Both the position numbers and the translations under genes were made by a program. A stretch of DNA of 9,500 nt from a virus (Duplodnaviria > Heunggongvirae > Uroviricota > Caudoviricetes): positions 1-9,500 of the IMG/VR virus record IMGVR_UViG_2585427755_000002. The stretch is one strand, 5' to 3'. How positions within the stretch are numbered: the first letter of the stretch is position 1; every line of letters begins with the position of its first letter. This document shows, one piece after another, positions 3,928 through 4,808 of the stretch. A model generated the notes under the pieces. That model worked only from the letters and a program-made list of their open reading frames with translations, searched no databases and had not been told where the DNA came from.

Positions 3928-4024
3928 ACGTCCTCCAAATATTGCGCGTTATGCATGTTATTTCACGCAATTATTTTGCGCAAGTTGATTTGCTTATCAC
4001 GCAATAAAGAAATGTAATAAACGC
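3928..4024. promoter_or_regulatory. OR-like immunity operator/promoter region between divergent cro and cI
   Basis: Holds TTGCTTATCACGCAA (3990-4004), a TTGC-N7-GCAA partial palindrome, plus degenerate relatives: TTGCGCGTTATGCA (3942-3955), TTATTTCACGCAA (3958-3970), and CGCAATTATTTTGCG (3967-3981), an inverted repeat with 5-bp arms. A possible -10 TAATAA (4015-4020) sits just before the cI ATG, consistent with a leaderless PRM-type transcript. Exact promoter hexamers are uncertain. Confidence 0.7.
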
Positions 4025-4717
4025 ATGAACATAGGAAACCGAGTCAGACAACTTCGCCAAGCGAAGAACATGAAAATCGCCGATCTCGCTGAAGCGATAG
4101 GAGTAGATGCGGCGAACATCTCGCGCTTAGAAACGGGTAAGCAAAAACAATTTACCGAACAAACACTGAGTAATATTGCCAAGAGCTTAGGTGTTGATAT
4201 TGCTGATCTCTTTACCTCTGCCCACAAAAGTAATACTGTATATAAAAACAGTAATAATGAGGATGTTGCGCAGGTGAAGGATGTGTTCCGTATTGAAATG
4301 CTGGATATCAGTGCCAGTGCGGGAAATGGCCTTATCCAGGGCGGTGATGTCATTGATGTGATTCATGCCATCGAATACAGAACTGATAATGCTGTATCAA
4401 TGTTCGGCGGACGACCAGCCAATCACATCAAAGTTATCAACGTTCGTGGGGACAGTATGTGTCCAACCATTGAGCCAGGAGATCTCATCTTCGTTGATGT
4501 CAGCATCAATCAGTTTGATGGTGATGGTATATATGTCTTTGGTTTTGATGACAAAATATACGTTAAAAGACTTCAAATGATTCCTGACAAACTGCTGGTG
4601 ATTTCTGATAACCAGATTTACCGTGAATGGGGAATTACTAGCGAAAACGAACACCGATTCATGGTCTTTGGAAAGGTCTTAATCAGTCAGTCGCAAACCC
4701 TTAAGAGACATAATTAA
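4025..4717 (+). CDS. cI: CI-type phage repressor (N-terminal XRE HTH, C-terminal S24 LexA-like autopeptidase)
   Basis: HTH at the N-terminus (VRQLRQAKNMKIADLAEAIGVDAANISRLETGK). The C-terminal domain carries the catalytic Ser motif (VRGDSMCPTIEPGDLIFVD) and the Lys motif (DKIYVKRLQ), paralleling LexA GMSM...VKRL. There is no obvious Shine-Dalgarno before the ATG. Confidence 0.9.
   Translation: MNIGNRVRQLRQAKNMKIADLAEAIGVDAANISRLETGKQKQFTEQTLSNIAKSLGVDIADLFTSAHKSNTVYKNSNNEDVAQVKDVFRIEMLDISASAGNGLIQGGDVIDVIHAIEYRTDNAVSMFGGRPANHIKVINVRGDSMCPTIEPGDLIFVDVSINQFDGDGIYVFGFDDKIYVKRLQMIPDKLLVISDNQIYREWGITSENEHRFMVFGKVLISQSQTLKRHN
4234..4253. promoter_or_regulatory. Perfect LexA (SOS) box TACTGTATATAAAAACAGTA inside the cI linker coding region
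   Basis: CTGT (4236-4239), an 8-nt AT-only spacer, and ACAG (4248-4251) with TA flanks match the CTGT-N8-ACAG consensus. It was the only perfect match in my manual scan of the window. Here it encodes SNTVYKNSNN in the cI inter-domain linker. Confidence 0.5.
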
Positions 4718-4736
4718 CCTCAATATCCCATCCATC

Positions 4737-4760
4737 GGCCACCGAAAGGTGGCTTTTTAT
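4737..4760 (+). terminator. Rho-independent terminator downstream of cI
   Basis: GGCCACC-GAAA-GGTGGC stem (6-7 bp, GNRA tetraloop) followed by TTTTTAT, 20 nt after the cI stop. Confidence 0.75.
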
Positions 4761-4771
4761 TACCTATAAAT

Positions 4772-4808
4772 TTGCATATCTCGCAAATATCACTTGCATA
4801 TCTCGCAA
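4772..4808. promoter_or_regulatory. OL-like operator pair: two identical copies of TTGCATATCTCGCAA, 22 bp apart, overlapping a probable early-left promoter
   Basis: Copies at 4772-4786 and 4794-4808 share the TTGC-N7-GCAA symmetry and the core of the OR site TTGCTTATCACGCAA. The location after cI and before the plus-strand early genes mirrors lambda OL/pL. A possible -35 TTGCAT (4794-4799), 17-bp spacer, and -10 TATCTT (4817-4822). Confidence 0.6.

What the first reader, a model, noticed from the sequence alone, without database searches (positions are those of the whole stretch)
3928..4808. Immunity switch with a shared TTGC-N7-GCAA operator motif at both OR-like and OL-like positions
The same 15-bp partial palindrome family occurs in the cro/cI intergenic region (TTGCTTATCACGCAA plus degenerate copies) and twice, perfectly repeated 22 bp apart, just downstream of the cI terminator (TTGCATATCTCGCAA). 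This defines a candidate operator consensus for the repressor and a lambda-like OR/OL layout that could support long-range looping. The OL-like site count is two rather than three.
Basis: seen in the sequence. Interest (0 to 1): 0.45.

Follow-up and report, generated by a model that had tools for sequence, protein, structure and literature searches.

The report
Repressor binding sites of a prophage switch
The repeated TTGC-N7-GCAA sequences on both sides of the repressor gene are very probably the binding sites of this SfII-type prophage's lysis/lysogeny switch, an ordinary lambda-like design whose recognition sequence I could not find described in print.

Summary
Exact TTGC-N7-GCAA occurs only three times in the window: 3990-4004, 4772-4786 and 4794-4808. 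A one-mismatch copy lies at 3942-3956. All four flank a CI-like repressor gene (4025-4717), which is divergent from a cro-like gene (3667-3927).

The module is 99.3% identical to Shigella phage SfII and is present in 1040 of 5426 complete E. coli genomes.

In 28 diverged lineages (CI 66-100% identical) the sites keep fixed positions. The TTGC/GCAA half-sites stay invariant while the central bases drift. In 24 lineages not used to build the matrix, 125 of 129 strong matches fall in the two operator zones. Heteroimmune SfV, which shares the flanking DNA, has none.

Two OL sites spaced 22-24 bp apart is the family rule, and phage 933W also lacks OL3.

Conserved hexamers place the sites over the -35 regions of the predicted PRM, PR and PL promoters. 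The predicted cI mRNA is leaderless.

Relatives also carry a likely operator inside cro, which is decayed here. Binding, promoter use and looping are untested.

Verdict: a new member of a known kind, of modest interest.

The parts
3667..3927 (-). cro-like gene (86 aa, HTH_3)
   Evidence: Pfam HTH_3, E 5e-10. Annotated Cro in SfII. Its recognition helix PATLSRIER resembles that of CI, AANISRLET.
3892..3906 (.). Site e: weak operator-like dyad inside cro codons 8-12 (ATGCGCCTTACGCAC, 9.9 bits). It is a strong site in relatives.
   Evidence: At least 12 bits in 23 of 28 lineages. Leu8 is always TTG and Ser11 always TCG, whereas other conserved Leu, Ser and Arg codons of cro vary freely.
3942..3956 (.). 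Site a: operator TTGCGCGTTATGCAT (16.7 bits), overlapping the -10 end and start of predicted PR
   Evidence: TTGC and GCAT are invariant in 28 of 28 lineages; the centre varies.
3955..3960 (-). Predicted PR -10 (TAACAT on the minus strand)
   Evidence: TAAnAT in 26 of 28 lineages, 17 bp from the -35. Inference; the consensus scan reported no promoter.
3969..3990 (.). Degenerate middle operator region around the invariant palindrome TTGCGCAA (3976-3983). Candidates are c' at 3969-3983 and c at 3976-3990. It also holds the PR -35 (TTGCGC, minus strand, 3983 to 3978).
   Evidence: c' reaches at least 9 bits in 17 of 28 lineages and c in 4 of 28. In this window c scores 3.2 bits and c' below 3 bits. 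The PR -35 TTGCGC is present in 28 of 28.
3990..4004 (.). Site d: operator TTGCTTATCACGCAA (18.7 bits). Its left half is the -35 (TTGCTT, 3990-3995) of predicted PRM.
   Evidence: Half-sites are invariant in 28 of 28 lineages.
4013..4018 (+). Predicted PRM -10 (TGTAAT), 6 nt before the A of the cI ATG, so the cI mRNA would be leaderless
   Evidence: TGTAAT in 28 of 28 lineages with variable flanks; the 6-nt spacing holds in 27 of 28. There is no Shine-Dalgarno sequence upstream of the ATG. Inference.
4025..4717 (+). cI-like repressor gene (230 aa): N-terminal HTH_3 domain plus C-terminal S24 autopeptidase domain
   Evidence: Pfam Peptidase_S24, E 6e-19; HTH_3, E 1e-11. Ala99-Gly100, Ser144 and Lys181 are conserved in relatives. 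Identical to SfII CI.
4737..4759 (+). Intrinsic terminator of cI
   Evidence: The stem sequence differs but the hairpin is kept in relatives. Annotated in SfII.
4772..4786 (.). OL1: operator TTGCATATCTCGCAA (17.9 bits), centred near -50 of predicted PL
4794..4808 (.). OL2: operator TTGCATATCTCGCAA (17.9 bits). Its left half is the -35 (TTGCAT, 4794-4799) of predicted PL.
4817..4822 (+). Predicted PL -10 (TATCTT), 17 bp after the -35
   Evidence: TAnnnT at this fixed distance in 26 of 27 lineages. Inference.

Best explanation
The 15-bp dyad TTGC(G)-N5-(C)GCAA is the operator recognised by dimers of the CI-like repressor (4025-4717), and very probably by the Cro-like protein as well. Together they form the immunity switch of an SfII/mEp460-type lambdoid prophage.

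In OR, site a (3942-3956) sits over the -10 end and start point of the rightward early promoter PR, which drives cro, the cII-like gene and the replication genes on the minus strand. Site d (3990-4004) supplies and covers the -35 of the maintenance promoter PRM, which would make a leaderless cI mRNA. A degenerate site around the invariant palindrome TTGCGCAA covers the PR -35.

Downstream of the cI terminator, OL2 (4794-4808) supplies and covers the -35 of a leftward early promoter PL. OL1 (4772-4786) lies two helical turns upstream, a spacing suited to pairwise cooperative binding.

Occupancy by CI would keep PR and PL shut. RecA-stimulated self-cleavage at Ala99-Gly100 would release them.

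Shown: the sites, their specificity to this repressor type, their conservation pattern, and the domain make-up of CI. Inferred: protein binding, promoter positions, which site fills first, cooperativity and any OR-OL loop.
For: 1. Enrichment and placement. Three exact copies against 0.43 expected, all flanking cI. They are the only copies in the whole SfII genome.

2. Phylogenetic footprint. In 28 lineages with CI 66-100% identical, sites a and d and two OL sites keep fixed offsets. The half-site columns are 28 of 28 invariant and the central bases vary.

3. Independent validation. In 24 lineages not used to build the matrix, 125 of 129 hits of at least 12 bits in 74 kb fall in the OR/OL zones.

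4. The motif follows the repressor. The CI recognition helix ANISR(L/V)E is conserved wherever the motif is. There are no hits in heteroimmune SfV, which shares the flanks, or in phages 3W and Turner, which share only the C-terminal domain.

5. Promoter hexamers are conserved at fixed spacing, and each -35 is an operator half-site. PRM: TTGCnn-17-TGTAAT, with TGTAAT in 28 of 28. PR: TTGCGC in 28 of 28 and TAAnAT in 26 of 28. PL: TAnnnT in 26 of 27.

6. CI has HTH_3 plus Peptidase_S24 domains with the Ala-Gly, Ser and Lys residues needed for self-cleavage. Cro has a similar recognition helix.
Against: - No binding or transcription data exist for this repressor in the literature I could search.
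- The consensus promoter scan found no sigma-70-like site in 3600-5300. My promoters match only 7-8 of 12 consensus positions.
- The best consensus match in OR (site d) lies where it should repress PRM, which is awkward for a simple lambda-like order of site filling.
- The middle OR site is barely recognisable in this window.
- Matrix scores are not affinities. In 933W the consensus site is not the tightest binder (PMC3317979).
Confidence: 0.85

Rival explanations
1. The OR sites are true operators, but the pair downstream of cI does not control an early leftward promoter. It would serve only as a loop anchor or insulator for OR, or control a short leader or small RNA rather than a PL operon.
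For: The predicted PL is a weak consensus match and was not reported by the scan. The first 165 nt after it hold no long ORF, but do hold a conserved structured element at 4900-4973. SfII, SfV and SfIV lack an N homologue (PMC3851460).
Against: A TAnnnT hexamer lies exactly 17 bp from the OL2 half-site in 26 of 27 lineages. The same site-over-the-35 design is seen at PR and PRM. Genes on the same strand follow (orf33-like at 4995, then yfdP/Q/R-like genes). A loop-anchor role and a PL-operator role are not mutually exclusive.
Confidence: 0.08
2. The motif is bound by another protein, not by CI/Cro. Candidates are the CII/CP76-like activator (3123-3674) or a host factor. Lambda CII also recognises TTGC repeats.
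For: Lambda CII binds TTGC-N6-TTGC (my own knowledge, not tested here). A cII-like gene lies next to cro.
Against: The repeats here are inverted with N7 spacing, not direct with N6. They overlap the divergent early promoters rather than an establishment promoter. SfV carries a homologous cII-like gene (552 bp in both phages; the part covered by the query, window 3600-3702, matches) yet has no motif hit of at least 10 bits in 6.5 kb. The motif follows the CI/Cro N-terminal domains.
Confidence: 0.03
3. The matches are a chance or recombination by-product, such as scars at a mosaic joint, with no function.
For: The ~90%-identical phages lose similarity to the window at 4877, and SfV similarity resumes at about 5014, so mosaic joints lie within a few hundred bp of the OL pair. 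A single 15-mer with 8 fixed bases is not rare (0.43 expected per window).
Against: Position-specific conservation across 28 lineages with drifting centres. 125 of 129 independent hits fall in the expected zones.
Confidence: 0.01

Closest known systems
Bacteriophage lambda immunity region (cI, cro, OR1-3, OL1-3, PRM/PR/PL)
   Same: Divergent cI and cro genes around a multi-site operator. A second operator cluster lies downstream of cI over a leftward early promoter. The repressor has an HTH domain plus an S24 self-cleaving domain. The OL site spacing of 22-24 bp resembles lambda's 23-24 bp (lambda figure from my own knowledge). The predicted PRM transcript is leaderless. The PR and PRM starts are about 77 bp apart, against 82 bp in lambda.
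   Different: Operators are 15 bp (TTGC-N7-GCAA), not 17 bp. OL has two sites, not three. OR in this window has two strong sites 48 bp apart plus a degenerate middle site, not three evenly spaced ones. OR and OL are about 0.8 kb apart, not about 2.4 kb, with no rexAB between them. Cro is an HTH_3 protein rather than the lambda Cro fold. No N homologue is reported for SfII-type phages (PMC3851460).
Shiga-toxin phage 933W repressor and operators
   Same: 15-bp rotationally symmetric operators with conserved outer positions and less conserved centres (PMC3317979). Three OR sites and no OL3 (PMC5977221). The immunity type studied here also occurs in Stx2-converting phages.
   Different: The half-site sequence described for 933W differs (PMC3317979), so it is a different immunity specificity. 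I did not test protein homology to the 933W repressor. 933W repressor does not bind adjacent sites cooperatively; this is unknown here.
Phage 434 (and P22) repressor/Cro with all-alpha HTH_3 domains
   Same: CI and Cro both use an HTH_3 domain. The 434 repressor is among the nearest solved N-terminal domains. As in 434, the outer 4-5 bp are fixed and the centre is free (434 pattern from my own knowledge).
   Different: Only distant sequence similarity (E 0.008 to 434 repressor). The site has an odd length of 15 bp, against 14 bp for 434.
Lactococcal phage TP901-1 switch (OR, OL and the distal site OD)
   Same: A repressor that uses an extra operator outside the intergenic region (three sites OR, OL and OD, PMC7250872). 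This is comparable to site e inside cro in relatives of this prophage.
   Different: An unrelated repressor architecture: a hexamer with no S24 domain. Site e is degraded in this window. That OD lies within the mor gene is from my own memory, not verified here.

Membership tests
Lambdoid CI/Cro immunity switch (OR/OL type) | Divergently transcribed repressor and cro genes separated by a short regulatory region | tested here: met
   cro at 3667-3927 (minus strand), cI at 4025-4717 (plus strand), 97-bp intergenic region.
Lambdoid CI/Cro immunity switch (OR/OL type) | Repressor with an N-terminal HTH domain and a C-terminal S24 (LexA-like) self-cleaving domain carrying an Ala-Gly site and a Ser/Lys dyad | tested here: met
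   Pfam HTH_3 and Peptidase_S24. Ala99-Gly100, Ser144 and Lys181 are conserved in relatives. Cleavage itself was not tested.
Lambdoid CI/Cro immunity switch (OR/OL type) | Three dyad-symmetric operators sharing one consensus in OR, overlapping PR and PRM | tested here: inconclusive
   There are two strong sites, a and d. The middle site scores at most about 3 bits in this window, although c' reaches at least 9 bits in 17 of 28 lineages. The overlap with promoters rests on conserved hexamers, not on mapped starts.
Lambdoid CI/Cro immunity switch (OR/OL type) | A second operator cluster (OL) of the same consensus over an early leftward promoter | tested here: met
   OL1 and OL2 at 4772-4808 are conserved in 25 of 28 lineages. 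A -10-like hexamer lies 17 bp from the OL2 half-site. This is met at sequence level only.
Lambdoid CI/Cro immunity switch (OR/OL type) | Operators inherited together with the repressor as one immunity cassette and absent from heteroimmune relatives | tested here: met
   SfV shares the flanks but has no motif. Phages 3W and Turner share only the C-terminal domain and have no motif. The motif tracks the recognition helix across lineages.
Lambdoid CI/Cro immunity switch (OR/OL type) | Repressor and Cro bind the operators; cooperative binding and OR-OL looping occur | not testable with these tools
   No experiments can be run here. No paper in the searchable library holds these operator sequences.
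933W-like switch with a two-site OL | 15-bp operators and only two sites in OL | tested here: met
   15-bp dyads. No third site reaches 3 bits in 4715-4900. Two sites in 25-26 of 28 lineages. The 933W precedent is in PMC5977221 and PMC3317979.
933W-like switch with a two-site OL | Repressor homologous to 933W CI, with the same specificity and non-cooperative binding | not tested
   The 933W repressor sequence was not compared. The half-site bases described in PMC3317979 differ from TTGC.

The most novel reading that the evidence does not exclude
This widespread immunity type may be wired differently from lambda. It would use a 4+2 operator layout: one operator embedded in the cro coding sequence about 50 bp downstream of the PR start, strong sites 48-50 bp apart in OR, a best-consensus site on the PRM -35, and a two-site OL. 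In that reading, repression of PR and autoregulation of cI rely on short-range loops or a roadblock rather than on the lambda OR1-OR2-OR3 cascade. In this particular window the intragenic site has partly decayed.
Probability: 0.3. Interest if true: 0.5.

Novelty: new member of a known kind. Interest (0 to 1): 0.3.

Why it matters
This immunity cassette is present in about one in five complete E. coli genomes. It also occurs in Shigella serotype-converting phage SfII and in several Stx2-converting phages.

A defined operator consensus and site map would let one predict superinfection immunity groups from sequence. It would also allow design of reporter or footprinting experiments, and a comparison of the induction circuitry of Stx phages of this type with 933W.

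It does not change the general picture of how lambdoid switches work.

Tried and rejected
- The sigma-70 consensus scan over 3600-5300 returned no promoter. Promoter positions therefore rest on conserved hexamers.
Its median score is -12.7 bits, and no lineage reaches 9 bits.
- Candidates c (3976-3990) and c' (3969-3983) for the middle OR site could not be separated. c' scores better in relatives, but the whole c block is nearly invariant.
- A weak dyad over the PRM -10 and ATG (4012-4026, 4.8 bits) never reached 9 bits in any lineage, and I dropped it.
- I inspected the minus strand of the OL region by eye for a promoter reading back into cI. The candidate hexamers are not conserved in relatives (sequences).
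- Solved structures gave no close relative.
- Rfam gave nothing in the switch region.
- Literature searches for the operator strings, for SfII/SfV operators and for mEp460 immunity found no characterisation.
- Tyler et al. 2004 on the 933W operators is not held in the library.
- A covariance-model search found no second copy of the conserved leader element in the whole SfII genome, which would have suggested an HK022 putL/putR-like pair.

Full report
**What is in the window.** The window is the early region of a lambdoid prophage. ORF 4025-4717 (plus strand, 230 aa) has an N-terminal Cro/CI-type HTH (HTH_3, E 1e-11) and a C-terminal Peptidase_S24 domain (E 6e-19). ORF 3667-3927 (minus strand, 86 aa) is a small HTH_3 protein. 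ORF 3123-3674 (minus strand) is a CII/CP76-type regulator. Region 3600-5057 is 99.3% identical to Shigella phage SfII, where these genes are annotated cI, cro and cII. It is about 90% identical to mEp460, to Stx2a phages 1447 and WGPS2, to 1720a-02 and to phiSTEC1575-Stx2k. The 1-kb core (3900-4900) is found in 1040 of 5426 complete E. coli genomes.

**Check of the observation.** Exact TTGC-N7-GCAA occurs three times in the window: 3990-4004, 4772-4786 and 4794-4808. The chance expectation is 0.43, and 1 of 200 shuffles reached three. The last two are identical (TTGCATATCTCGCAA), 22 bp apart, and begin 13 bp after the T-run of an intrinsic terminator whose stem is 4737-4754. Allowing one mismatch adds 3942-3956 (TTGCGCGTTATGCAT) in the cro/cI intergenic region. 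In the whole 41.5-kb SfII genome the motif occurs only at these places.

The remaining "degenerate copies" are weak. Sites 3956-3970 and 3976-3990 score about 3 bits on a matrix, against 16.7-18.7 bits for the four good sites. No third site of even 3 bits exists downstream of cI.

**Comparative test.** I collected relatives of the repressor from GTDB genomes and from IMG/VR. The GTDB hits came from Shigella, three Citrobacter, Pseudescherichia, Klebsiella, Trabulsiella and Buttiauxella. That gave 227 usable loci, 73 distinct CI proteins and 28 lineage representatives, with CI 66-100% identical to the window.

- Relative to the cI ATG, every lineage has a site at -83 (TTGC-N7-GCAT, site a) and one at -35 (TTGC-N7-GCAA, site d).
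- 25 of 28 lineages have exactly two sites of at least 12 bits after the cI terminator, spaced 22, 23 or 24 bp.
- Half-site columns are invariant in 28 of 28 lineages, while the central bases vary. This is the pattern expected for a dimeric HTH repressor site.
- The matrix was built from ten loci. In the 24 lineages not used for it, 125 of 129 hits of at least 12 bits in 74 kb fall in the two operator zones.

**The motif follows the DNA-binding domain.** The CI recognition helix ANISR(L/V)E is conserved in all these lineages. Heteroimmune SfV shares the flanking DNA and a homologous cII-like gene, but has a different cI/cro and no hit of at least 10 bits in 6.5 kb. Phages 3W and Turner share only the C-terminal domain (about 42% identity) and also have none. 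SfV similarity stops at about 3702 and resumes at about 5014. The cro-OR-cI-OL block therefore behaves as one immunity cassette.

**How it probably works (inference from conserved hexamers).**

- *PRM.* On the plus strand, TTGC(T/A/C)(T/C)-17 bp-TGTAAT precedes cI. TGTAAT is invariant in 28 of 28 lineages amid variable flanks and ends 6 nt before the A of the ATG in 27 of 28. No Shine-Dalgarno sequence is present. This predicts a PRM promoter giving a leaderless cI mRNA starting near 4025. Site d is centred about -28 of this promoter and supplies its -35.
- *PR.* On the minus strand, TTGCGC (28 of 28 lineages; 3983 to 3978) lies 17 bp from TAA(C/T)AT (26 of 28; 3960 to 3955). This predicts PR with a start near 3948. 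Site a covers the -10 end and the start, and the invariant palindrome TTGCGCAA covers the -35.
- *PL.* Downstream of cI, the left half of OL2 (TTGCAT, 4794-4799) lies 17 bp from TATCTT (4817-4822; TAnnnT in 26 of 27 lineages). This predicts PL with a start near 4829. OL2 is centred about -28 and OL1 about -50.

All three promoters thus use an operator half-site as their -35. The tool's consensus scan did not report these promoters, which match only 7-8 of 12 positions, so they remain predictions.

CI has Ala99-Gly100, Ser144 and Lys181 in the LexA-like arrangement, conserved in relatives. RecA-dependent self-cleavage is therefore the expected induction route. Cro has a similar recognition helix, (A/S)(T/N)LSRIER, and presumably competes for the same sites.

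**Where it departs from the lambda picture.**

- *The middle OR site is unclear.* The block TTGCGCAAGTTGCTT (window 3976-3990, with GATT at its end) is almost invariant. The overlapping 15-mer c' (3969-3983) reaches at least 9 bits in 17 of 28 lineages and c (3976-3990) in only 4. Both are weak in this window. c' would lie 21 bp from d and mimic the OL1-OL2 geometry. c would lie at -42 of PRM, the position of lambda OR2 (my own knowledge).
- *The best consensus site in OR (d) is where it should repress PRM.* Consensus match is not affinity, however, as the 933W data show (PMC3317979).
- *OL has two sites throughout the family.* This has a precedent: 933W uses 15-bp operators and has no OL3 (PMC3317979, PMC5977221).
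- *Looping is unassessed.* The OR-OL distance is only about 0.78 kb. Whether CI tetramers or octamers form a loop cannot be assessed here.

**An extra site inside cro.** Relatives carry a further dyad at -133/-134, within cro codons 8-12. It reaches at least 12 bits in 23 of 28 lineages, with a median of 15.5. The half-site bases coincide with synonymous positions that never vary:

- Leu8 is TTG in 21 of 21 cases.
- Ser11 is TCG in 20 of 20.
- Ala at the same position is GCG in 6 of 6.
- Arg9 is always CGN, with a free third base.

Every other conserved Leu, Ser or Arg column of Cro uses 3-6 synonymous codons. This argues for selection on the DNA, that is, for a fourth OR-side operator about 50 bp downstream of the PR start. 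In this window the site is degraded (GTG CGT AAG GCG CAT, 3892-3906, 9.9 bits).

**What is known.** I found no paper containing these operator sequences, and none characterising the SfII or mEp460 repressor. The SfIV genome paper only notes that SfII has cI and cro genes and lacks N (PMC3851460). No close solved structure exists; the nearest N-terminal domains are ClgR, 434 repressor and SinR, and the nearest C-terminal domain is UmuD.

**Verdict.** The feature is a new member of a known kind: a lambdoid immunity switch with a new recognition sequence and a 933W-like two-site OL. Binding, promoter activity, cooperativity and looping remain to be shown experimentally. Interest is modest (0.3). 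It is raised slightly by the prevalence of the cassette, including in Stx2 phages, and by the likely intragenic operator in relatives.

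Noticed in passing
window 3892-3906 (inside cro, codons 8-12): An operator-like dyad lies about 50 bp downstream of the predicted PR start. It is weak here (9.9 bits) but strong in 23 of 28 related lineages. There the Leu TTG and Ser TCG / Ala GCG codons that form the half-sites never vary, while all other conserved Leu, Ser and Arg codons of cro do. It is probably a fourth OR-side operator in the family.
   Followed up: yes
window 4900-4973 (+): A nearly invariant element of about 65 nt lies in the predicted PL leader. Its core is CGAACAGGCAGGACGCCCACGAAGTAGCCGCC, then a hairpin, then GATGATTCG. It is present in 159 of 229 fetched loci with unrelated flanks. The consensus fold has four covarying pairs, and the G-U pairs are legal only on the plus strand. 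A covariance model also finds it after the cI terminator of heteroimmune SfV (89 bits). It finds no copy in mEp460 or Stx2a_1447 and no second copy in the SfII genome. There is no Rfam family match. It could be a leader, antitermination-type or small RNA in these N-less phages. Function unresolved.
   Followed up: partly
window 5542-5757 (+): Rfam match to the gammaproteobacterial sRNA STnc100: 41.4 bits, E 2e-6, full model length, but below the gathering score of 47.
   Followed up: no
window 4995-5454: Public annotations conflict here. SfV annotates a plus-strand orf33 (equivalent to 4995-5291). SfII annotates only a minus-strand gene, SfII_36 (about 5235-5426, within ORF 5209-5454). The two overlap convergently, and neither has a Pfam match.
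   Followed up: no
window 2406-2469: About four tandem 15-bp repeats (consensus CAGATTTTGACGGGT) lie inside the O-like replication gene (1837-2778, minus strand). They are likely origin iterons, and they explain a spurious miRNA-family hit there.
   Followed up: partly
window 4786-4794 and relatives: The OL1-OL2 spacing is 22 bp in this window and in SfII, but 23 bp in most lineages and 24 bp in some. Small indels are tolerated between the sites, while the sites themselves are kept.
   Followed up: partly
loci L012/L176 and L013: Two relatives lack one or both OL sites. In L013 a different sequence follows directly after the single remaining site. They are probably truncated prophages that keep cI and OR. 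L012/L176 also has an isolated perfect site about 0.9 kb upstream of cI, at -927.
   Followed up: no
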